Assembly (NCBI RefSeq): GCF_024502345.1
Contig: NZ_JALDNN010000001.1
Direction: 5' to 3' (one strand)
DNA from: Escherichia coli
Lineage (GTDB): Bacteria > Pseudomonadota > Gammaproteobacteria > Enterobacterales > Enterobacteriaceae
DNA length: 64,000 nt
Part shown: piece after piece, positions 11 through 44,083 of the stretch
Layout of the letters: each line of letters starts with the position of its first letter
How positions within the stretch are numbered: the first letter of the stretch is position 1
Translations under genes and position numbers: made by a program
Notes under the pieces: model-generated
Told to the model about the DNA's origin: nothing
The model's input: only the letters and a program-made list of their open reading frames with translations
Database searches by the model: none

Positions 11-835
11 ATGATTTTGACTCCCATACGACGATATGGGGCGATGATTCTTATGTTACTCACTCTGGTGTTTTCGAGTGAGGTGTTAGCGAAGACGCAC
101 ACAACAACAGCGAGTCAAAAGTCCCACTTAACTAAAGCTAGTAATAAACAGGTAAGCAGTAAACAAGAGTATTCTCGCAATAGTGCAAAGAGTAGTTCAC
201 TTCCTGATTTGCGAAAATACCCTTCCGGAACACCAAGGAAAAAGGCGTTTCTCCGGACCGTAATGCCTTACATTACCAGCCAAAATGCAGCCATTACTGC
301 AGAACGTAACTGGCTGATTTCAAAACAGTATCAGGGCCAATGGTCACCTGCTGAGCGTGCGCGTCTGAAAGACATCGCCAAACGCTACAAGGTGAAGTGG
401 TCTGGTAATACGCGAAAAATCCCGTGGAATACCTTGCTTGAACGCGTAGACATTATCCCCACCAGTATGGTGGCGACGATGGCTGCAGCAGAAAGCGGTT
501 GGGGAACGTCGAAGCTGGCGCGCAACAACAACAATCTTTTCGGCATGAAATGCATGAAAGGACGTTGTACCAATGCGCCGGGTAAAGTGAAAGGGTACTC
601 ACAGTTTAGTTCTGTCAAAGAATCGGTGAGCGCCTATGTCACTAACCTCAATACGCACCCGGCTTACTCTTCGTTCCGTAAATCGCGTGCGCAGCTGCGT
701 AAAGCGGATCAGGAAGTGACTGCCACAGCGATGATTCACAAGCTGAAGGGCTACTCGACCAAAGGGAAGAGTTATAACAACTACCTGTTCGCAATGTACC
801 AGGATAACCAACGGTTAATCGCGGCGCATATGTAA
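11..835 (+). CDS. bax: Bax protein (putative glucosaminidase family), 274 aa
   Basis: Full-length 274-aa ORF with N-terminal signal-like segment; recognised as Bax; lies next to xylR as in E. coli synteny. Confidence 0.85.
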   Translation: MILTPIRRYGAMILMLLTLVFSSEVLAKTHTTTASQKSHLTKASNKQVSSKQEYSRNSAKSSSLPDLRKYPSGTPRKKAFLRTVMPYITSQNAAITAERNWLISKQYQGQWSPAERARLKDIAKRYKVKWSGNTRKIPWNTLLERVDIIPTSMVATMAAAESGWGTSKLARNNNNLFGMKCMKGRCTNAPGKVKGYSQFSSVKESVSAYVTNLNTHPAYSSFRKSRAQLRKADQEVTATAMIHKLKGYSTKGKSYNNYLFAMYQDNQRLIAAHM

Positions 836-849
836 TTGTATTTCCTCGA

Positions 850-919
850 GCCTTATCCGACTTGTCGGTCGGATAAGGCTTTTGATCGCATCAGGTGGTT
901 GTGCTGAGTTACCTGATGC
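850..919. repeat. Two REP-like palindromic hairpins (gccttatccgac/gtcggataaggc and gcatcaggt/acctgatgc) between convergent bax and xylR; probable bidirectional terminator
   Basis: Perfect 12-bp inverted repeat at 850-879 followed by TTTT, second 9-bp inverted repeat at 887-919. Confidence 0.5.
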
Positions 920-942
920 GACGCCGACAATTCTCATCATCG

Positions 943-2121
943 CTACAACATGACCTCGCTATTTACATCGCGATACTCTTTTGGCGTCGTGTCATATGCT
1001 TTTTTAAAAACAGAGTAGAAATATTGCAGCGATGGATAACCGCACATTTGCGATATCTCATTGATCGACAAGGTGGTTGAAATCAGCAGACTGCGCGCTT
1101 TCTCCAGCTTCTCGGCATGAATCATGGCATGGATGGTTTCACCCACCTCTTCTTTAAAACGCTTCTCAAGATTGGAGCGCGAGATCCCGACCGCATCGAG
1201 TACCTGATCCACTTTAATCCCTTTACAGGCGTGATTACGAATGTAATGCATGGCCTGAATAACGGCGGGATCGGTCAGCGAGCGGTAATCTGTTGAGCGC
1301 CGTTCAATGACGCGAACTGGTGGGACCAAAATTCGCTGTAGCGGCATTTCTTCTTTATCTAATAATCGATGCAACAGTTTTGCCGCCTGATAGCCCATTT
1401 GCCGCGCGCCCTGAGCGACCGAAGAAAGGGCGACACGCGACAGATAGCGGGTCAGTTCTTCGTTGTCGATGCCAATCACGCATAATTTTTCCGGTACGGG
1501 AATGTGTAGATGTTCACATACTTGCAGAATATGCCGCGCCCGGGCGTCAGTAACGGCAATAATCCCGGTTTGCGGTGGCAGCGTTTGTAGCCAGTCTGCC
1601 AGCCGATTTTGCGCGTGTTGCCAGTTCTCTGGCGCGGTTTCTAACCCCTGATAAACCACTCCGCGATACTTTTCTTCGGCGACAAGCTGACGAAATGCAT
1701 ATTCGCGTTCAGTGGCCCAACGTTTGCCGCTTGATTCCGGAAGACCATAAAAAGCAAAGCGGTTAACGCCTTTCTCTTTTAAATGCAAAAATGCGCTTTC
1801 AACCAGCGCATAGTTATCGGTGGCAATGTAATGAACGGGTGGGTAACTTTCTGCAAGGTGATACGAGCCGCCAACCCCAACAATGGGGACGTCGACATCA
1901 GCCAGCGCTTGCTCGATCTGTTTGTCGTCGAAGTCGGCAATGACGCCATCTCCTAACCAGTCCTTGATTTTATCAATGCGGGCGCGGAAATCTTCTTCAA
2001 TGAAAATATCCCATTCCGATTGTGACGCCTGTAAATATTCCCCTACGCCTTCTACTACCTGCCGGTCATAGGCTTTATTGGCATTGAACAGTAATGTGAT
2101 GCGGTGACGTTTAGTAAACAT
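943..2121 (-). CDS. xylR: Xylose operon transcriptional activator XylR (AraC-type HTH with periplasmic-binding-protein-like domain), 392 aa
   Basis: 392-aa ORF; C-terminal AraC-family HTH; last gene after xylFGH. Confidence 0.95.
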   Translation of the reverse strand: MFTKRHRITLLFNANKAYDRQVVEGVGEYLQASQSEWDIFIEEDFRARIDKIKDWLGDGVIADFDDKQIEQALADVDVPIVGVGGSYHLAESYPPVHYIATDNYALVESAFLHLKEKGVNRFAFYGLPESSGKRWATEREYAFRQLVAEEKYRGVVYQGLETAPENWQHAQNRLADWLQTLPPQTGIIAVTDARARHILQVCEHLHIPVPEKLCVIGIDNEELTRYLSRVALSSVAQGARQMGYQAAKLLHRLLDKEEMPLQRILVPPVRVIERRSTDYRSLTDPAVIQAMHYIRNHACKGIKVDQVLDAVGISRSNLEKRFKEEVGETIHAMIHAEKLEKARSLLISTTLSINEISQMCGYPSLQYFYSVFKKAYDTTPKEYRDVNSEVML

Positions 2122-2198
2122 GGTTCTTTTCCTGCTGAATCATGCAAAAACTCAAAACCGGTAATACGTTACCGGCTTTGAGAAAATTTTTATCAAAA

Positions 2199-3380
2199 TC
2201 AAGAACGGCGTTTGGTTGCGGAGTCCATCCATACTGCCAGCAACAGAATCGCACCTTTAACGATATACTGCCAGAAGGTCGGTACATCCATCATACTCAT
2301 GCCGTTATCCAGTGAAGCCATGATAAATGCCCCCATTACCGCTCCAGCCACGCTCCCGACACCGCCAGCCAGGCTGGTGCCGCCAATCACGCATGCTGCA
2401 ATTGCGTCCAGCTCGGCGATATTCCCCGCAGAAGGTGAACCAGCGCCAAGTCGAGAACTGAGGATTAATCCGGCGATGGCTACCATTAATCCGTTAATTG
2501 CGAACACGGCAAGTTTGGTGCGTTCAACGTTAATCCCGGAGAGCCGTGCTGCTTCCAGATTGCCGCCGATGGCATAAATGCGTCGTCCAAATGCCGTCCG
2601 CGTTGCCATAAACATTCCGCCGAGTAACAGCAACGTCAGCAGCAGAACAGGAGTGGGAACGCCACGGTAATCATTCAACAGCCAGATTGCGCCTAATACG
2701 ATGATAGCGGTTAAAGCCTGGCGACCGACTACTGCGGTAGAGGCCGGAGACTGCAAACCCAAAGCCTGACGGCGCATTCTTCCGCGCCATTGCCAACCAA
2801 CAAAAGCCATTAAGCCAAGCGCGCCAATGATGAAGCCGGTGCTGGCGGGGAGATAGCTTTGCCCAATTTGTGACATCGCGGCGCTGGTGGGGGATACAGT
2901 CGTGCCGTTGGTGATGCCAATGAGTATGCCGCGAAATGCCAACATGCCCGCGAGAGTGACAATAAATGAAGGGACTTTGCGGTACGCGACCCACCATCCG
3001 TTCCAGGCACCGAGAAGCAGTCCCAGAACCAACGTCACAATGATGGTAAGTGGCAAAGGCCAGCCTAGCCAGACGTCACAAATCGCCGCGACGCCACCTA
3101 ATAGCCCCATCATTGAGCCGACGGAAAGGTCGATTTCAGCAGAAATTATGACGAACACCATTCCTACCGCGAGGATGCCGGTAATCGCGGTCTGGCGTAA
3201 CAGGTTGGAGACGTTACGGGCGCTTAAGTAGGCACCATCGGTGGTCCAGGTAAAGAACAGCATGATTGCGATGATAGCTGCAATCATCACGAAGACCTGC
3301 AAATTCAGTGATTTCAGCCCGGAGAAGCCACCGGATGTCGGTACGGCCAATTTCACTTCAGACGGATTGCTTTTCGACAT
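2199..3380 (-). CDS. xylH: Xylose ABC transporter permease XylH, 393 aa
   Basis: 393-aa highly hydrophobic multi-pass ORF; overlaps xylG stop region; operon context. Confidence 0.95.
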
Positions 3381-4899
3381 GATGTTCGCTCCTCAATGCG
3401 GCTTCCATCACCTGCTCCTGAGTCAGGTTATGATTTATCAGGTTGGCTTTTAGTTTCCCTTCATGCATCACTAGTACACGATCGCTAAGGCCGAGCACTT
3501 CAGGTAATTCGGAAGAGATGACAATAACGGCAATACCCTGCTGGACGAGTTGGTTAATTAATTTGTAGATCTCGTATTTCGCGCCAATATCGATACCCCT
3601 GGTGGGTTCATCAAGAATGAGAATGCGCGGGTTAAGTAACAGACAGCGAGCGAGGATCGCTTTTTGCTGATTGCCGCCGCTCAAACGTCCAATAGCAAGG
3701 TCGGGGGACGACGTTTTAACTTTGAGTTGCTGGATTGATTCCAGAATACATTTTTGCTCTGCCGCGTCATCAAGCTGGCTAATGCCACCGGTAAATTTAT
3801 TGAGTGCGGCGAGGGTAATATTTTTACCAGCCGCCATTACCGGAACGATGCCGTCGCGCTTTCTGTCTTCGGGGACCATCGCAATCCCCTGGGCGATGGC
3901 TTGCTGACAGTTACGAATATCTACCTGTTTGCCATCAATATAAATTTTTCCTTCCCATTGTCCGGGCCACACACCAAACAGGCACTGAATGGTCTCGGTA
4001 CGTCCGGCACCAACGAGTCCGGCAATACCCAGTATTTCGCCACGTTTCAGGGAAAACGAGACATCATTAACTCGTTTAATATGACGATTAACCGGATGCC
4101 ATGCCGTCAGATGTTCAATACGTAATATTTCATCTCCGGTGGTATGTGGTTCATTAGGGTAAAGCGCGGTTAACTCTCGCCCGACCATCATGGTGATAAT
4201 ATCGTCTTCACTCATTCCGGCAGCATCACGCGTACCAATGTGCTGTCCGTCGCGAATAACGCAAATCGTATCGGAAATCGCTTTGACTTCGTTGAGTTTG
4301 TGCGAAATATAAATACAGGCGATACCGTGCTGTTGTAGATCGCGAATAATATCCAGTAAAACCGACGTTTCCTGCTCAGTTAATGAGGCTGTCGGTTCAT
4401 CGAGAATTAACAAGCGCACCTGTTTATTAAGTGCCTTGGCAATTTCAACCAGTTGTTGTTGCCCAAGCCCTAAATCGCCAACGCGGGTATCAGGTGAAAT
4501 GGATAAACTGACCTGTGCGAGCAGCTTCTGACAGCGTAGCGTCATCAGGTCATAATCCATAATGCCATTGTGGGTTATTTCGTTACCCAGGAAGATATTT
4601 TCCAGCACGGTCAATTCTTTCACCAGGGCCAATTCCTGGTGAATGATGGCGATACCTTTGCGTTCGGTATCGCGGATGTGACTCGCCTGAATCTCTTCTC
4701 CCGCAAAAATAATTTCGCCTTCGTAGGAGCCATGGGGATAAATACCACACAGCACTTTCATCAGCGTTGATTTACCAGACCCATTTTCCCCACAGAGTGA
4801 GACGATTTCGCCAGCATTCAACCGCAAGCTGACGTTATCAATCGCCTTCACACTGCCGAAGGTTTTGGTAATGTTCTTCATTTCAAGTAGATAAGGCAT
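3358..4899 (-). CDS. xylG: Xylose ABC transporter ATP-binding protein XylG (duplicated ABC domains), 513 aa
   Basis: 513-aa ORF with two Walker A motifs ([18 protein letters not shown]) and LSGG signature motifs. Confidence 0.95.
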
Positions 4900-4976
4900 A
4901 ACGACTCCACCTAAGCCAATTCATTCACGCGGCATGGAGAGAAATCACGCCCCCGCTCCGCGCCGGGGCGTAACGC

Positions 4977-5969
4977 TTACAGCTCGCTCTCTTTGTGGAA
5001 TCCGTCTTTAACTACCGTGTCTTTGATGTTGTTTTTATTCACATCGATCGGTGTCAGGAGGCGGGAGGGCACATCTTTCAGGCCATTATTCAGTGTGGTA
5101 TCTGCTTTTGGTTCCTGACCATTGCCCAACTCAACGGCAATTTCTGCGGCAGTATTTGCCAGCAATGTAATAGGTTTATACACCGTCATAGTTTGCGTAC
5201 CGGCAGCAATACGTTTAATACCTGCGAGATCCGCATCCTGGCCGGAAATTGCTACTTTCCCTGATAAACCTTGCGCGCTTAATGCCTGAATTGCCCCACC
5301 TGCGGTGGCATCGTTTGAGGCAACTACAGCATCAATTTTGTTATTATTGGCGGTTAGCGCGTTTTCCATAATTTTCAATGCGTTTTCCGGTAACCAGCCA
5401 TCAACCCATTGGTCACCAACGACTTTAATTTTTCCGGAATCAACGTAAGGTTTTAACACTTTCATTTGTCCGGCGCGGAACAGCTTGGCGTTGTTATCTA
5501 CCGGCGAGCCGCCCATCAGGAAGTAATTACCTTGCGGAACAATATCGACCAGGGCTTTTGCCTGCAGTTCACCGACTTTTTCGTTATCGAAAGAAATATA
5601 AAAATCGATATCCGCATCGTTAATCATACGGTCGTAAGCTAATACTTTAATGCCTTCTTGTTTGGCTTCTTTTACAACGTTACTTAATACCTGACCGTTA
5701 TACGGAATAATGACAAGAACATCGACACCCCGGTTAATCATGTTTTCAATCTGCGACATTTGTGTTTCTTCATTGCCATTTGCAGACTGTACAAATACTT
5801 TCGCGCCGAGAGATTCTGCCTTTTTCACAAAAATATCTCGATCTTTTTGCCAGCGTTCAAGACGGAGATCATCAATCGCCATACCTATTTTGACTTCTTT
5901 GGCGTGTGCCGCAACGTTGGTAAGCAGAAGTGAGGTGCAAAGGGTGAGTAGAATGTTCTTTATTTTCAT
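4977..5969 (-). CDS. xylF: D-xylose-binding periplasmic protein XylF, 330 aa
   Basis: ORF track gives 356 aa; start placed at internal Met (MKIKNILLTL...) giving signal peptide and 330 aa. Confidence 0.93.
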   Translation of the reverse strand: MKIKNILLTLCTSLLLTNVAAHAKEVKIGMAIDDLRLERWQKDRDIFVKKAESLGAKVFVQSANGNEETQMSQIENMINRGVDVLVIIPYNGQVLSNVVKEAKQEGIKVLAYDRMINDADIDFYISFDNEKVGELQAKALVDIVPQGNYFLMGGSPVDNNAKLFRAGQMKVLKPYVDSGKIKVVGDQWVDGWLPENALKIMENALTANNNKIDAVVASNDATAGGAIQALSAQGLSGKVAISGQDADLAGIKRIAAGTQTMTVYKPITLLANTAAEIAVELGNGQEPKADTTLNNGLKDVPSRLLTPIDVNKNNIKDTVVKDGFHKESEL

Positions 5970-6334
5970 GGTGTAGGGCCTTCTGTAGTTAGAGGACAGC
6001 TTTAATAAGTAACAATCACCGCGATAAACGTAACCAATTTTTAGCAACTAAACAGGGGAAAACAATTACAGATTTTTATCTTTCGATTACGATTTTTGGT
6101 TTATTTCTTGATTTATGACCGAGATCTTACTTTTGTTGCGCAATTGTACTTATTGCATTTTTATCTTCGAGGAATTACCCAGTTTCATCATCCCATTTTA
6201 TTTTGCGAGCGAGCGCACACTTGTGAATTATCTCAATAGCAGTGTGAAATAACATAATTGAGCAACTGAAAGGGAGTGCCCAATATTACGACATCATCCA
6301 TCACCCGCGGCATTACCTGATTATGGAGTTCAAT
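5970..6334. promoter_or_regulatory. Divergent xylF / xylA control region (XylR and CRP-dependent promoters)
   Basis: 365-bp AT-rich intergenic region between divergent xylF and xylA; CRP-like half sites tgtga-N6-tcaat near 6222-6237; exact XylR sites not resolved by eye. Confidence 0.6.
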
Positions 6335-14817: not shown

Positions 14818-15097
14818 TATCGCTAAATAATACAGCAACCTTTAATAATCTTCTGCTGAATAAAGATTATCTCATATATTAATTTTATGAGGTTTTTTTA
14901 GGATTATATCAAGGAGAAGAAACAAACTTATTAAGCTAGAATAGCCACGGGTGCTTGAGACTGTTTGTCTCAGGTATTCACCGAAAGGCAGACAGAGAAA
15001 AGCCCCACCTGACTATAAATCAAAGTGAGGCTACCCTATGCCTGAACACCATAAGGTTAGCCTCTTACTCGTTGGAAATCAACACAGGGGGCTGGGA

Positions 15098-15250
15098 ATG
15101 CCGCAGAAATATAGATTACTTTCTTTAATAGTGATTTGTTTCACGCTTTTATTTTTCACCTGGATGATAAGAGATTCACTGTGTGAATTGCATATTAAAC
15201 AGGGGAGTTATGAGCTGGCGGCATTTTTAGCCTGCAATTTAAAAGAGTAA
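15098..15250 (+). CDS. hokA: Hok-family type I toxin HokA, 50 aa
   Basis: MPQKYRLLSLIVICFTLLFFTWMIRDSLCELHIKQGSYELAAFLACNLKE; single TM helix plus conserved Cys pair; 70-aa in-frame extension from 15038 also possible. Confidence 0.8.
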   Translation: MPQKYRLLSLIVICFTLLFFTWMIRDSLCELHIKQGSYELAAFLACNLKE

Positions 15251-15380
15251 GAGTCTTCGGCGGGAAGTTATTCCCGCCTTTCTTACGGCGTTGCGCATTC
15301 TCATTGCACCCAAATTTATTTTTCACAAAAATAATACTAGATTTTATTACGCGATCGATTATTTATTTCCTGAAAAACAA

Positions 15381-15410
15381 ATAAAAAAATCCCCGCCAAA
15401 TGGCAGGGAT
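15381..15410 (-). terminator. Rho-independent terminator downstream of cspA (minus strand)
   Basis: On minus strand: tccctgcc-attt-ggcgggga followed by U-run. Confidence 0.6.
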
Positions 15411-15437
15411 CTTAGATTCTGTGCTTTTAAGCAGAGA

Positions 15438-15650
15438 TTACAGGCTGGTTACGTTACCAGCTGCCGGGCCTTTAGCGCCGCTTTCGATGGTGAAGGACAC
15501 TTTCTGACCTTCGTCCAGAGATTTGTAACCATCGTTCTGGATAGCAGAGAAGTGTACGAACACGTCTTTAGAGCCATCGTCAGGAGTGATGAAGCCGAAG
15601 CCTTTGTCAGCGTTGAACCATTTTACGATACCAGTCATTTTACCGGACAT
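15438..15650 (-). CDS. cspA: Major cold-shock protein CspA, 70 aa
   Basis: [23 protein letters not shown]... exact CspA sequence with RNP1/RNP2 motifs. Confidence 0.97.
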
Positions 15651-15930
15651 AGTGTATTACCTTTAATAATTAAGTGTGCCTTTCGGCGATATGGCGTGCT
15701 TTACAGATTTTGAAGCGTTAAAGGAATGTGCACTACGAGGGGTATCAACGATAACTCTTGAAGGGACTTGCCTTACTACACTGCTTTAATGGTCTGTACG
15801 TCAAACCGTTGATGTGCATTAAGCCACGCATTGGCGGGTGATGCAACAATTATTTTTCATATTTATGATTAATCGGTTGGAAAACGGTCCTGTCATCAGG
15901 ACCGTAAACAGCAATAAAGTGGATAAAAGT

Positions 15931-32891: not shown

Positions 32892-33008
32892 GAACCTCCG
32901 GGGGCAGGGAGGTTCGGCTCGACGTAGGCCTGATAAGACGCGTCAGCGTCGCATCAGGCAACGGCACCGCACTCATTGTCGGATGCAGCGTACCCGTCTT
33001 ATCCGACC
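32892..33008. repeat. BIME-like cluster of REP palindromes
   Basis: aggcctgataagacgcgtcagcgtcgcatcaggc and gtcggatgcagcgtacccgtcttatccgac REP-type units plus gaacctcc...ggaggttc hairpin. Confidence 0.6.
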
Positions 33009-39298: not shown

Positions 39299-40359
39299 TT
39301 ACTCAATCAGCTTCAACAGTGGCGACAAGCATAGCAAAATGCCGTAAAGCAGAATTAGCCAGGCTTTAAATCCGCGAAGTTTTTCCAGTTGTGCGACTTT
39401 ATAGATCAGGAAAAACGGAATGAGGCACGACACAATGCCATATAACGGGCTTCCCAACTGAAAGAACACCAGCACCGATACACGAAACGAAACCCAAATC
39501 GTCAACGTAATGACGATAAAAGCGCAGATCGCCAGAGTCAGCATGCGTGAGTTAATTTTCTTGGTATCAATAATTCGGCTTAACAGATTGAGAATAATGC
39601 CTTTAATAGCCTCGTGGAAACCGAGATAAATGCCAAAGAATGCGGTCAGTACGGCAAAGATATTCAGCACCGTAGAGGTGATATGAATGATATGTCCAGG
39701 GATCACCTGCGCGGCCAGTGCCAGTGCCGAGATATTTTGTTCAAAGGCAGAAACGGCTTCTTCGTGGCTAATTGAGAAGGTAAACGAAAAGGCAAAAAAC
39801 AGGATCACCGCGATGAGCGTGATATAACTAATTCGATGGGTACGCAGCGCGAGCCGGGTTGCCAGTACTTTATCTGCTTCCCGTTTACGATAGGCAATAT
39901 TCATTGGGTTAAGTACCTGAATAAATACCGCAGAAAAGAAGCAAAATGGAATGGTAAGCAGGACATCGCGGAAAAAGACGGAGGCTTGCGGGAAGGCGGT
40001 TATATTGGCGAAATTCCAGTGCGGGATCATCGCAAAACCGAACACGACAATAATCCCTACTTTGACCACCACCATTGGCCCAGAAATCTTAAACAGTAAT
40101 CGTTCACCACCAGACGCAATCGCTACCAGTACGGCGAAAATAGCGACTTTATAAAGTAGAGATTGTGAAAGATCGGCATCGGTTAAACCGAAGGTTTTCA
40201 GGTACGAGGCGCTGTCGAAAACCACGGAGAGAGAGTAGATAAAAATCCCGTGGATAATCATCAAAAAGTAGATAACCCCGAGGAAAATTCCCCAGTTCTT
40301 CCCCAGGTAATGACTGATAATATCGGTGTAGTCATTACAGGAATCGCTTTCAGAAAGGG
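39299..40359 (-). pseudogene. yhjV: 5'-truncated yhjV (amino acid/H+ symporter family transporter); N-terminal ~70 codons and promoter replaced by IS1
   Basis: Hydrophobic transporter reading frame runs with no stop up to the IS1 left end at 40360; ORF track's 321-aa version starts at an internal TTG/ATG. Confidence 0.8.
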
Positions 40360-40414
40360 GGTGATGCTGCCAACTTACTGATTTAGTGTATGATGGTGTT
40401 TTTGAGGTGCTCCA

Positions 40415-40690
40415 GTGGCTTCTGTTTCTATCAGCTGTCCCTCCTGTTCAGCTACTGACGGGGTGGTGCGTAACGGCAAAAGCACCGCCGGACATCAGCG
40501 CTATCTCTGCTCTCACTGCCGTAAAACATGGCAACTGCAGTTCACTTACACCGCTTCTCAACCCGGTACGCACCAGAAAATCATTGATATGGCCATGAAT
40601 GGCGTTGGATGCCGGGCAACCGCCCGCATTATGGGCGTTGGCCTCAACACGATTTTCCGCCATTTAAAAAACTCAGGCCGCAGTCGGTAA
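40415..40690 (+). CDS. insA: IS1 InsA (transposition repressor / N-terminal transposase part), 91 aa
   Basis: [43 protein letters not shown]... zinc-finger plus HTH. Confidence 0.92.
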
Positions 40691-41112
40691 CCTCGCGCAT
40701 ACAGCCGGGCAGTGACGTCATCGTCTGCGCGGAAATGGACGAACAGTGGGGATACGTCGGGGCTAAATCGCGCCAGCGCTGGCTGTTTTACGCGTATGAC
40801 AGGCTCCGGAAGACGGTTGTTGCGCACGTATTCGGTGAACGCACTATGGCGACGCTGGGGCGTCTTATGAGCCTGCTGTCACCCTTTGACGTGGTGATAT
40901 GGATGACGGATGGCTGGCCGCTGTATGAATCCCGCCTGAAGGGAAAGCTGCACGTAATCAGCAAGCGATATACGCAGCGAATTGAGCGGCATAACCTGAA
41001 TCTGAGGCAGCACCTGGCACGGCTGGGACGGAAGTCGCTGTCGTTCTCAAAATCGGTGGAGCTGCATGACAAAGTCATCGGGCATTATCTGAACATAAAA
41101 CACTATCAATAA
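40609..41112 (+). CDS. insB: IS1 InsB reading frame (expressed as InsAB' transposase by -1 frameshifting)
   Basis: 167-aa ORF in -1 frame overlapping insA 3' end, typical IS1 organisation. Confidence 0.88.
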
Positions 41113-41127
41113 GTTGGAGTCATTACC

Positions 41128-42013
41128 GGATTCCGGTGCCAGCGTGGCGGTCGGCTGGCGAAATGACGTCTGGAGCTGGGATATCGGTACCACGCCGATG
41201 GGCTTCAACGTGGTGGATGTGGTCGGCGGCATCAGTTACAGCGATGATATCGGGCCGCTGGGTTACACCGTTAACGCCCACCGTCGGCCCATCTCCAGTT
41301 CTTTGCTGGCCTTTGGTGGGCAAAAAGACTCCCCGAGCAATACCGGGAAAAAATGGGGTGGCGTACGTGCCGACGGTGTGGGGCTAAGTCTGAGCTACGA
41401 TAAAGGTGAAGCAAATGGCGTCTGGGCATCGCTTAGTGGCGACCAGTTAACCGGTAAAAATGTCGAAGATAACTGGCGCGTGCGCTGGATGACGGGCTAT
41501 TACTATAAGGTCATTAACCAGAACAATCGCCGCGTCACAATCGGCCTGAACAACATGATCTGGCATTACGACAAAGATCTGAGTGGTTACTCACTCGGTC
41601 AGGGCGGTTACTACAGTCCGCAGGAATACCTGTCGTTTGCCATACCGGTGATGTGGCGGGAGCGCACGGAAAACTGGTCGTGGGAGCTGGGGGCGTCTGG
41701 CTCGTGGTCGCATTCACGCACCAAAACCATGCCGCGTTATCCGCTGATGAATCTGATCCCGACCGACTGGCAGGAAGAAGCTGCGCGGCAATCCAACGAT
41801 GGCGGCAGCAGTCAGGGCTTCGGCTATACGGCGCGGGCATTACTTGAACGACGTGTTACTTCCAACTGGTTTGTCGGCACGGCAATTGATATCCAGCAGG
41901 CGAAAGATTACGCCCCCAGCCATTTCCTGCTCTACGTACGTTATTCCGCCGCCGGATGGCAGGGTGACATGGATTTACCGCCGCAGCCGCTGATACCTTA
42001 CGCCGACTGGTAA
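41128..42013 (+). pseudogene. bcsC: 3' remnant (about 295 codons) of cellulose synthase operon protein BcsC (outer-membrane beta-barrel part)
   Basis: Frame continues from IS1 right end; ends ...PQPLIPYADW; full BcsC is about 1150 aa so the TPR region and start are absent. Confidence 0.85.
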
Positions 42014-42094
42014 GTTTTCAGATAGCGCCTCTCTTAATGCCGCTGCGATCGGGTATACTCGGGCGGCAATCTGGGATTTCCGGGGGGAGACAAT

Positions 42095-44083
42095 TTGCGC
42101 GTAAGTCGCTCGTTAACAATCAAGCAGATGGCAATGGTGGCAGCCGTTGTCCTGGTGTTCGTTTTTATTTTTTGCACCGTTTTGCTGTTCCATCTGGTCC
42201 AGCAGAATCGCTATAACACGGCTACGCAACTGGAAAGCATTGCTCGCTCTGTCCGCGAACCTTTATCTTCAGCCATTTTGAAAGGTGATATTCCCGAAGC
42301 GGAAGCTATTCTTGCCAGCATTAAACCGGCAGGCGTGGTCAGCCGTGCCGATGTAGTGCTGCCCAACCAGTTCCAGGCGCTGCGTAAAAGTTTTATTCCA
42401 GAGCGCCCGGTGCCGGTAATGGTTACTCGCCTGTTTGAGCTACCGGTTCAAATCTCGCTGGGCGTTTACTCGCTCGAACGTCCGGCAAATCCGCAGCCAA
42501 TTGCCTATCTGGTGCTACAGGCGGATTCCTTCCGTATGTATAAGTTCGTGATGAGCACCCTCTCAACGTTAGTGACCATTTACTTACTTTTGTCGTTAAT
42601 ATTGACGGTGGCGATTAGCTGGTGCATTAACCGCCTGATTTTGCATCCGTTACGCAATATTGCTCGCGAACTTAACGCCATCCCAGCCCAGGAGCTTGTT
42701 GGTCACCAACTGGCATTACCGCGTCTGCATCAGGATGATGAAATCGGTATGTTGGTGCGCAGTTACAACCTCAACCAGCAATTGCTGCAGCGCCATTATG
42801 AAGAACAGAACGAAAATGCGATGCGCTTCCCAGTGTCGGATTTGCCGAACAAAGCCTTGCTGATGGAGATGCTGGAGCAGGTTGTCGCGCGTAAACAAAC
42901 CACCGCGCTGATGATCATCACCTGTGAAACCCTGCGTGATACTGCGGGTGTGCTGAAAGAGGCGCAACGAGAAATTCTGCTGCTGACGCTGGTGGAAAAA
43001 CTCAAATCGGTACTGTCGCCACGTATGATCCTCGCGCAGATTAGCGGTTATGACTTTGCTGTCATTGCCAATGGTGTACAGGAACCGTGGCACGCAATCA
43101 CCTTAGGTCAGCAAGTGCTCACTATCATGAGCGAGCGCCTGCCGATTGAACGTATTCAACTCCGTCCGCACTGTAGCATTGGCGTGGCGATGTTCTACGG
43201 CGATCTCACCGCCGAACAGCTTTACAGTCGCGCTATTTCTGCGGCATTTACCGCTCGCCATAAAGGCAAGAATCAGATTCAGTTCTTTGATCCGCAGCAG
43301 ATGGAAGCCGCCCAGAAGCGGTTGACGGAAGAGAGCGATATCCTTAATGCACTGGAAAATCATCAGTTTGCTATTTGGTTACAGCCACAGGTCGAGATGA
43401 CCAGCGGTAAACTGGTCAGTGCGGAAGTGTTACTGCGTATCCAGCAACCGGATGGCAGTTGGGACCTGCCGGATGGCTTAATCGAGCGCATTGAGTGCTG
43501 TGGGCTGATGGTTACCGTCGGTCACTGGGTGCTGGAAGAGTCCTGTCGATTGCTTGCAGCCTGGCAAGAGCGCGGCATTATGCTGCCCTTGTCGGTAAAC
43601 CTCTCTGCGCTGCAACTGATGCACCCGAATATGGTGGCGGATATGCTGGAACTGTTAACCCGCTATCGCATTCAGCCGGGAACACTGATTCTGGAAGTGA
43701 CAGAAAGCCGACGTATTGACGACCCTCATGCTGCGGTGGCAATCCTCCGTCCGCTGCGCAATGCTGGAGTTCGGGTGGCGCTGGATGATTTCGGCATGGG
43801 CTACGCAGGGCTGCGTCAGCTGCAGCATATGAAATCGTTGCCAATCGACGTTCTGAAAATCGACAAAATGTTTGTTGAAGGCTTGCCGGAAGATAGCAGC
43901 ATGATTGCTGCAATTATCATGCTGGCGCAGAGCCTGAACTTACAAATGATTGCCGAAGGCGTGGAGACTGAAGCACAACGCGACTGGCTGGCAAAAGCGG
44001 GCGTTGGTATTGCCCAGGGCTTCCTTTTTGCTCGTCCACTCCCTATTGAAATCTTCGAAGAGAGTTACCTGGAAGAAAAGTAG
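42095..44083 (+). CDS. pdeK: c-di-GMP phosphodiesterase PdeK (TM-HAMP-degenerate GGDEF-EAL), start uncertain
   Basis: 662-aa ORF from TTG with ggggagac RBS; EAL-domain motifs (EVTE, DDFG) in C-terminal half. Confidence 0.85.

What the first reader, a model, noticed from the sequence alone, without database searches (positions are those of the whole stretch)
41114..42013. IS1 right end creates an in-frame TTG-initiated ORF fused to the BcsC C-terminal fragment
The ORF 41114..42013 begins inside the IS1 terminus (ttg gag tca tta ccg) and continues in frame into the BcsC remnant. If read-through or outward transcription from IS1 occurs, a roughly 299-aa orphan outer-membrane beta-barrel fragment without a signal peptide could be made; most likely it is an inert remnant.
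Basis: inference. Interest (0 to 1): 0.3.

Follow-up and report, generated by a model that had tools for sequence, protein, structure and literature searches.

The report
IS1 deletion scar with accidental ORF
An IS1 insertion sequence sits where about 14 kb of the E. coli cellulose-synthesis locus was deleted, and the 299-codon reading frame running from its tip into the leftover end of bcsC is an accidental by-product with no sign that it is expressed, so the finding is ordinary.

Summary
An intact 768-bp IS1 lies at 40360..41127. Its right inverted repeat holds a TTG at 41114. That TTG is in frame with the last 886 nt of bcsC and gives an ORF at 41114..42013. The ORF has five IS1-derived codons followed by BcsC residues 864-1157.

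The structure is a deletion scar. The left flank is a 5'-truncated yhjV and the right flank is the 3' end of bcsC. There is no target-site duplication. 14,188 bp of the K-12 map are missing: ldrD/rdlD, bcsGFE, bcsRQABZ and most of bcsC.

Nothing supports expression of the ORF:
- The TTG has no Shine-Dalgarno sequence.
- The IS1 end forms no hybrid promoter with the flank.
- The only upstream + strand promoter match is IS1's own promoter, described in the literature as weak and self-repressed.
- The product would lack a signal peptide, all TPRs and the first part of the 16-strand barrel.

In-frame fusion is a one-in-three chance event at any IS1 right end. The real biological content is loss of cellulose synthesis. 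Independent bcs deletions in other E. coli strains show that this recurs.

Interest is low.

The parts
39299..40359 (-). yhjV remnant. It is truncated at the 5' end: the first 211 nt (70 codons) of the K-12 gene are missing. No in-frame start codon occurs before the TTG at 40264.
   Evidence: The flank maps to K-12 yhjV with 0 mismatches in the 60 bp next to IS1. Translation is open from the junction. The ORF list shows the first start at 40264.
40360..41127 (+). Complete IS1 element of 768 bp. It is the only copy in the window and has no flanking target-site duplication (left flank cagaaaggg, right flank ggattccgg).
   Evidence: Sequence. Length and ends. Single IRR match in the window. 99.2-99.6% identical to annotated IS1A/IS1B-family copies.
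40367..40394 (+). IS1's own promoter, overlapping the IRL (CTGCCA-16-TATGAT). It is the only + strand promoter-like site upstream of the ORF.
   Evidence: Promoter scans. The literature describes this promoter as extremely weak and repressed by InsA (PMC12428005).
40415..40690 (+). insA (91 aa).
   Evidence: Pfam Zn_ribbon_InsA and HTH_Tnp_IS1.
40609..41112 (+). insB' frame. It is reached by a -1 frameshift at the A6C motif near 40665. Its TAA stop at 41110-41112 lies 1 nt before the TTG of the ORF.
   Evidence: Pfam DDE_Tnp_IS1, E = 2e-78. Sequence.
41105..41127 (+). IS1 right inverted repeat. It holds TTGGAG (41114-41119), which is both the known position of IS1's outward -35 box and the ORF's start codon.
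   Evidence: Exact match to GGTAATGACTCCAACTTATTGAT on the - strand. Outward -35 concept: PMC8764528.
41114..42013 (+). The reported 299-codon ORF: 14 nt of IS1 plus the bcsC remnant.
41128..42013 (+). bcsC 3' remnant of 886 nt, encoding BcsC residues 864-1157 plus the stop codon. It is a pseudogene fragment.
   Evidence: Maps to K-12 bcsC. 100% protein identity to 6TZK. The window has 2 private substitutions, both synonymous, against 23 other alleles.
42095..44083 (+). Intact pdeK/hmsP (yhjK), the first intact gene downstream. It has its own strong Shine-Dalgarno sequence.
   Evidence: ORF list. Annotation of the homologous region. SD energy -9.4 kcal/mol.

Best explanation
The ORF is a non-functional by-product of an IS1-associated deletion.

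An IS1 element sat in this region. It most likely first inserted at one of the two present junctions. It then made an adjacent deletion by intramolecular transposition, or it recombined with a second IS1 copy. Either way, about 14 kb between yhjV codon 71 and bcsC codon 863 were lost. That removed ldrD/rdlD, bcsG, bcsF, bcsE, bcsR, bcsQ, bcsA, bcsB, bcsZ and three quarters of bcsC.

The strain therefore cannot make phosphoethanolamine-cellulose. The last 886 nt of bcsC remain as a pseudogene stub.

The IS1 right end happens to hold a TTG in one open frame, and the junction fell in the matching codon phase. A 299-codon ORF results.

The ORF has no ribosome-binding site and no promoter of its own. 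If trace amounts were made, the product would stay in the cytoplasm because it has no signal peptide. It could not close a 16-strand barrel and would be degraded.

Shown: the anatomy, the deletion, and the absence of expression signals. Inferred: the order of events and the lack of expression.
For: Anatomy and deletion:
- IS1 is complete and bounded by non-matching 9-mers.
- The flanks map with 0 mismatches to K-12 positions 14,188 bp apart (gene content).
- The fragment equals BcsC 864-1157 and covers only Pfam BCSC_C positions 64-334 of 336. The barrel is a 16-stranded domain of about 400 residues. The solved construct spans residues 707-1157 (PMC8892547).

Expression signals:
- SD pairing before the TTG is +1.6 kcal/mol. 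The background mean is -2.3, and five real genes in the window score -5.3 to -10.3.
- The candidate -10 hexamers placed 16-18 bp after the IS1 TTGGAG are GTGCCA, TGCCAG and GCCAGC. None resembles TATAAT (sequence), and neither scan reports a promoter there.
- Any such hybrid promoter would start transcription downstream of the TTG anyway.
- The only upstream + strand promoter match is IS1's own weak, InsA-repressed promoter.
- The N-terminus has no signal-peptide-like hydrophobic core.

Comparative evidence:
- Annotators of the comparable stub in E. coli HS called it a truncation.
- IS1-flanked bcs deletions with other endpoints exist in E. coli strain 81 and EcPF16.
- IS1 is a classic producer of adjacent deletions that lack direct repeats (PMC9330008).
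Against: - No intrinsic terminator is predicted on the + strand between insB' and the ORF, or between dppF and IS1. Read-through RNA across the junction is therefore possible.
- Transcription entering IS1 from upstream host DNA has been documented for other IS1 copies (PMC12428005).
- The insB' stop lies 1 nt before the TTG, so termination-reinitiation is conceivable.
- The remnant has no nonsynonymous or disabling changes. With only 2 private substitutions, this cannot separate recent origin from selection.
- No expression data could be examined.
Confidence: 0.9

Rival explanations
1. The ORF is expressed at a low level. RNA starting at the IS1 promoter, or reading in from dppF through the antisense of yhjV', crosses the junction. 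Ribosomes that finish insB' at TAA 41110-41112 reinitiate at TTG 41114. This gives a cytoplasmic BcsC barrel fragment with some effect, such as stress induction or toxicity.
For: - The stop and the start are 1 nt apart.
- No + strand terminator is predicted upstream.
- Upstream transcription is known to run into IS1.
- The frame has been left intact.
Against: - insB' is translated only after a rare -1 frameshift, and the IS1 promoter is weak and autorepressed.
- The TTG has no SD pairing.
- The 1-kb untranslated antisense stretch of yhjV' would favour Rho termination (inference).
- The fragment lacks a signal peptide and part of the barrel.
- The in-frame phase is a one-in-three accident.
Confidence: 0.05
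2. The bcsC stub persists because it carries transcription signals for the downstream pdeK/hmsP gene. Deletions that reach further would be counter-selected. On this reading the ORF is irrelevant and the DNA matters.
For: All independent bcs deletions seen keep pdeK and at least 871 nt of the bcsC 3' end. These are the window, HS, strain 81 and EcPF16.
Against: - No consensus promoter was found in 41128..42095. The single relaxed match, at 41514, is weak.
- HS was found by a search that forces its endpoint to lie near here.
- Strain 81 and EcPF16 belong to one lineage, so only about three independent events were seen.
- With cellulose synthase gone, the main known target of PdeK is absent (PdeK's role).
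Confidence: 0.05
3. On origin only: the single IS1 is the product of homologous recombination between two directly oriented IS1 copies, one in yhjV and one in bcsC. It is not the product of an IS1 transposase-driven adjacent deletion.
For: Both routes leave one IS1 without a target duplication. A Logan contig (L013) has the same IS1/bcsC junction but a different base 2 nt to the left of IS1. That is compatible with an older IS1 insertion in bcsC whose left side varies between strains.
Against: - No genome with IS1 at either site in an otherwise intact locus was found among 5,426 complete E. coli genomes.
- The window holds only one IS1.
- Nested one-sided deletions next to IS1 occur at this locus in another lineage. 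That is the hallmark of transposase-driven adjacent deletion.
Confidence: 0.3

Closest known systems
IS1-mediated adjacent deletions (intramolecular transposition; reviewed in PMC9330008, which cites Turlan & Chandler 1995)
   Same: A single intact IS1 is retained. There are no direct repeats. Contiguous host DNA is lost from one IS end to a new target.
   Different: The event itself was not observed. Recombination between two IS1 copies would give the same product.
E. coli strain 81 / EcPF16 bcs deletions (NZ_CP088131.1, NZ_CP054224.1)
   Same: IS1 lies in the same orientation between a truncated bcsG or bcsE and an N-terminally truncated bcsC. pdeK/hmsP is intact downstream. PGAP annotates the stub as a pseudogene.
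   Different: The junctions are different. The bcsC remnant there is about 2.24 kb, and yhjV and the ldr genes are retained.
E. coli HS 'cellulose synthase operon protein C, truncation' (ABV07944.1)
   Same: The bcsC stub is almost the same (starting 15 bp further in) and the bcs core genes are lost.
   Different: No IS is present. The 12,801-bp deletion occurred at a 6-bp microhomology, CGTGGC. bcsG', the ldr genes and yhjV are retained.
IS1 hybrid (fusion) promoters (Prentki et al. 1986, as cited in PMC9330008 and PMC8764528)
   Same: The outward-facing TTGG.. box lies 8 nt from the IS1 tip, at 41114-41119.
   Different: No usable -10 hexamer lies at 16-18 bp in the bcsC flank. No hybrid promoter is formed here.

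Membership tests
IS1 family insertion sequence | 768-bp length with imperfect terminal inverted repeats of about 23-30 bp | tested here: met
   Element at 40360..41127. IRL is GGTGATGCTGCCAACTTACTGAT. IRR is an exact match to GGTAATGACTCCAACTTATTGAT.
IS1 family insertion sequence | insA and insB' frames joined by an A6C -1 frameshift site, with InsA and DDE_Tnp_IS1 domains | tested here: met
   Pfam PF03811, PF12759 and PF03400. The motif ttaaaaaactc is at about 40664.
IS1 family insertion sequence | 8-9 bp target-site duplication flanking a simple insertion | tested here: not met
   The flanks are cagaaaggg and ggattccgg. This is expected for a deletion derivative and does not argue against IS1 identity.
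BcsC outer-membrane cellulose channel (functional protein) | N-terminal signal peptide | tested here: not met
   The ORF starts MESLPDSGASVAVGW. The native protein starts MRKFTLNIFTLSLGLAVMPMVEA.
BcsC outer-membrane cellulose channel (functional protein) | 19 periplasmic TPR repeats | tested here: not met
   The fragment begins at residue 864, past TPR19, which lies within residues 707-1157 of the solved construct. The only Pfam hit is BCSC_C.
BcsC outer-membrane cellulose channel (functional protein) | Complete 16-stranded beta-barrel | tested here: not met
   Only BCSC_C profile positions 64-334 of 336 are present. The first 154 residues of the 6TZK chain are absent. The exact number of strands lost was not determined because the AF2 model failed.
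BcsC outer-membrane cellulose channel (functional protein) | Sequence homology to BcsC | tested here: met
   100% identity over 294 aa to 6TZK and 9B8A.
IS1-generated hybrid promoter | Outward -35 box in the IR plus a -10 hexamer 16-18 bp away in the flank | tested here: not met
   TTGGAG matches TTGACA at 3 of 6 positions. The candidate -10 hexamers are GTGCCA, TGCCAG and GCCAGC, read from the sequence. Neither scan reports a promoter there.
Expressed protein-coding gene | Ribosome-binding site before the start codon | tested here: not met
   Anti-SD duplex energy is +1.6 kcal/mol for TTG 41114. GTG 41144 scores -4.6 and ATG 41198 scores -4.9. About a fifth of random positions (21%) reach -4 or better. 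Real genes score -5.3 to -10.3.
Expressed protein-coding gene | Evidence of transcription and translation | not testable with these tools
   No RNA-seq, ribosome-profiling or proteomic data for this strain are available here.

The most novel reading that the evidence does not exclude
The TTG in the IS1 right inverted repeat, placed 1 nt after the insB' stop, might act as a portable reinitiation codon. One in three IS1 right-end junctions would then yield a low-level N-terminally truncated fusion protein. Here that would be a cytoplasmic BcsC barrel fragment with a measurable effect, such as proteotoxic stress or titration of a Bcs partner or chaperone.
Probability: 0.03. Interest if true: 0.35.

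Novelty: already known. Interest (0 to 1): 0.08.

Why it matters
The ORF itself matters little. The useful content is practical:
- The strain has lost its whole cellulose (bcs) locus, the LdrD/RdlD toxin-antitoxin pair and an intact YhjV transporter, through one IS1-associated event. It is predicted to be cellulose-negative.
- The 299-, 289- or 271-codon ORFs that gene callers report here should be annotated as a bcsC pseudogene fragment, not as a gene.
- This is one more independent example of recurrent bcs loss in E. coli, which is already described for Shigella, EIEC and other lineages (preprint 10.1101/2025.05.09.653004).

Tried and rejected
- Source strain and other carriers of the junction. 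The junction is absent from 5,426 complete E. coli genomes, from GTDB species representatives and from JGI metagenome contigs. The only other carrier is one 1.9-kb Logan contig (L013). Its bcsC stub differs at 7 synonymous sites, and the base 2 nt to the left of IS1 differs. Two bases of flank were too little to interpret.
- Shigella origin. I considered it and dropped it. The window has a single IS and is otherwise collinear with ordinary E. coli genomes, at up to 99.9% identity in the first 15 kb.
- A deletion or insertion hot spot near bcsC codon 863. The HS endpoint lies 15 bp away, and many assemblies have bcsC split at codons 840-877. I rejected this as an ascertainment effect: those loci were retrieved by searching for the exact 289-aa and 271-aa C-terminal ORFs, which forces the lesion to lie just upstream.
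- Counting the lost beta-strands. A single-sequence AlphaFold2 model of BcsC 707-1157 was unusable (pLDDT 30). The Acheson 2019 structure paper is not held.
- A 19-nt similarity between the yhjV flank and the IRR/bcsC junction (16 of 19). I judged it chance, because eight similar families occur in 4 kb.
- Literature searches for this junction, and for a pdeK promoter inside bcsC, found nothing specific.

Full report
**Observation**

The sequence at 41100-41130 reads ...cactatcaa taa g TTG GAG TCA TTA CC|G GAT TCC.... The mechanical ORF list gives 41114..42013 (+, 299 aa, TTG start).

The IS1 boundaries are 40360 (GGTGATGCTGCC...) and 41127 (...AAGTTGGAGTCATTACC), exactly 768 bp. The right inverted repeat occurs once in the 64-kb window.

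The element looks intact:
- insA (40415..40690) has the InsA zinc-ribbon and HTH domains.
- The insB' frame (40609..41112) has DDE_Tnp_IS1.
- The A6C frameshift motif is present.
- It is 99.2-99.6% identical to IS1 copies annotated as IS1A/IS1B family in RefSeq.

The first 14 nt of the ORF are therefore IS1, and codon 5 straddles the junction. From residue 6 the ORF is native BcsC residue 864 onward, out of 1157.

That part is 100% identical to the solved E. coli BcsC chains 6TZK (residues 707-1157) and 9B8A. It matches Pfam BCSC_C positions 64-334 of 336.

**Is it more than chance?**

No. All three frames are open across the last 15 nt of IS1. Only the frame with TTG 41114 holds a canonical start, and that frame is closed upstream by TAA 41096-41098. 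Any junction in the matching codon phase, one in three, extends that TTG into the flanking gene.

**What is really there**

The 60 bp to the left of IS1 map without mismatch to yhjV (minus strand here). The 60 bp to the right map to bcsC. In K-12 these two positions are 14,188 bp apart.

The K-12 annotation shows what lies between: the first 211 nt of yhjV, ldrD/rdlD, bcsG, bcsF, bcsE, yhjR (bcsR), bcsQ, bcsA, bcsB, bcsZ and bcsC codons 1-863. The ancestor may have had more ldr repeats, as strain 81 and HS do, so the true loss is about 14-16 kb.

The 9-mers flanking IS1 differ (cagaaaggg versus ggattccgg). This is not a simple insertion. It is the single-IS, no-direct-repeat product typical of IS1 adjacent deletion or of recombination between two IS1 copies (PMC9330008).

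The window is otherwise ordinary E. coli. It runs xyl - glyS - cspA - lpf - bisC - eptB - dppABCDF on one side and pdeK/hmsP - dctA - yhjJ - kdgK ... gadA on the other. It is collinear with many genomes and has no other IS.

**Can the ORF be expressed?**

Transcription:
- The only + strand sigma-70-like site upstream is the IS1 promoter in the IRL (CTGCCA-16-TATGAT, 40367-40394). The literature calls it extremely weak and repressed by InsA (PMC12428005).
- IS1 ends carry an outward -35 box that can form hybrid promoters when a -10 lies at the right distance (PMC8764528; PMC9330008). Here that box is TTGGAG at 41114-41119. The hexamers 16-18 bp downstream are GTGCCA, TGCCAG and GCCAGC, read from the sequence. 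The two scans report no promoter there.
- Such a promoter would start RNA downstream of the TTG in any case.
- No + strand intrinsic terminator is predicted between dppF and the ORF, so read-through RNA cannot be excluded.

Translation:
- The anti-Shine-Dalgarno duplex energy upstream of TTG 41114 is +1.6 kcal/mol, meaning no pairing.
- The background mean is -2.3 kcal/mol.
- dppD, dppF, insA, pdeK and dctA score -5.3 to -10.3 kcal/mol.
- The alternative starts that gene callers use, GTG 41144 (289 aa) and ATG 41198 (271 aa), score -4.6 and -4.9 kcal/mol. About 21% of random positions reach -4 or better.
- The insB' stop (41110-41112) is 1 nt before the TTG, so termination-reinitiation is conceivable. 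However, insB' is read only after a rare frameshift.

Product:
- There is no signal-peptide-like N-terminus.
- There are no TPRs.
- The N-terminal part of a 16-strand, roughly 400-residue barrel is missing.
- Such a fragment could neither be exported nor close a barrel (inference).

**Evolutionary signal**

Against 23 other bcsC alleles, the stub has two private substitutions, both synonymous, and no amino-acid change relative to K-12. That is too little to separate a recent deletion from selection. It is what a young pseudogene looks like.

**Distribution**

The junction is absent from 5,426 complete E. coli genomes, from GTDB representatives and from JGI metagenomes.

The exact 299-aa ORF is on record once, in a 1.9-kb Logan contig with IS1 upstream. 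Its stub differs at 7 synonymous sites, and the base 2 nt to the left of IS1 differs. This is compatible with an IS1 that first inserted in bcsC and then lost different amounts of DNA on its left in different strains, but two bases of flank do not prove it.

Independent bcs deletions exist elsewhere:
- E. coli HS lost 12,801 bp between bcsG and bcsC at a 6-bp microhomology, without any IS. Its stub is annotated as a 'truncation'.
- Strains 81 and EcPF16 carry bcsG'-IS1-'bcsC and bcsE'-IS1-'bcsC, annotated as pseudogenes.
- Those two strains are nearly identical downstream (4 SNPs in 7.3 kb) yet differ at both IS1 junctions. These are nested IS1-adjacent deletions in one lineage.

Loss of cellulose synthesis in Shigella, EIEC and other E. 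coli lineages is already described.

**Verdict**

The feature is a known kind of event: an IS1-associated deletion scar. The ORF is an accidental, unexpressed-looking by-product. The biologically meaningful statement is that this strain has lost its bcs locus.

Confidence is 0.9 that the ORF has no function. The residual uncertainty is trace expression by read-through and coupling, or a role for the DNA stub in pdeK transcription.

Noticed in passing
L001 (NZ_JBYQQI010000002.1 plasmid) 509-5798; also hits H5-H25: At least 20 E. coli plasmids of about 90-160 kb carry a full-length bcsC (98% identical to the window's stub) with a bcsZ 3' fragment, bracketed by IS1 copies. This looks like composite-transposon capture of a chromosomal bcsC.
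   Followed up: partly
L010 (E. coli HS, CP000802.1) around 5995-6005: HS lost bcsG'..'bcsC through an IS-free 12,801-bp deletion at a 6-bp microhomology, CGTGGC. The endpoint is 15 bp from the window's IS1 junction. HS was retrieved by a search for the exact 289-aa ORF, so the proximity is an ascertainment effect.
   Followed up: yes
L002 6001-6768 and L025 5001-5768: E. coli strains 81 and EcPF16 are nearly identical downstream (4 SNPs in 7.3 kb, identical IS1). Yet their IS1/bcsC junctions differ by 5 bp and their left junctions by 1.6 kb (bcsG' versus bcsE'). These are nested IS1-adjacent deletions within one lineage.
   Followed up: yes
L003-L009, L011, L012, L015-L024: Many E. coli assemblies have bcsC split by frameshift or stop near codons 840-877, giving separate 289-aa or 271-aa C-terminal ORF calls. 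I did not check whether these are real mutations or assembly errors. The clustering is forced by how the loci were found.
   Followed up: no
window 39299-40359 (-): The yhjV remnant is open from the IS1 junction but has no start codon until TTG 40264. It would give a 321-aa N-terminally truncated transporter ORF and is also probably dead. The IS1 left end forms no hybrid promoter toward it.
   Followed up: partly
window 40327-40345 and 41115-41133: A 19-nt direct similarity (16 of 19 matches) links the yhjV flank just left of IS1 with the IRR/bcsC junction, including AGTCATTAC. It is probably chance: eight such families were found in 4 kb.
   Followed up: partly
L013 (Logan SRR16526992) 1-1918: This is the only other record of the exact IS1/bcsC junction. 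Its IS1 differs at 6 positions and its bcsC stub at 7 synonymous positions, and the base 2 nt to the left of IS1 is T rather than G. The same junction therefore sits in a different allelic background. This is unexplained.
   Followed up: partly
window 14949-15810, 32757-33008, 62724-62837: Rfam gathering-level hits: sok antitoxin RNA (14949-15100, +), cspA 5' UTR thermoregulator (15383-15810, -), a tRNA (32757-32830, +), naRNA4 (32927-33008, -) and GadY (62724-62837, -). All are expected for this E. coli region.
   Followed up: no
window 15400-40359: The best identity of this stretch (lpf - bisC - eptB - dpp - yhjV) to any complete E. coli genome is only about 99.2%. The first 15.4 kb reach 99.9% in the same genomes. 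This suggests a recombinant or mosaic segment, or a poorly sampled lineage.
   Followed up: no
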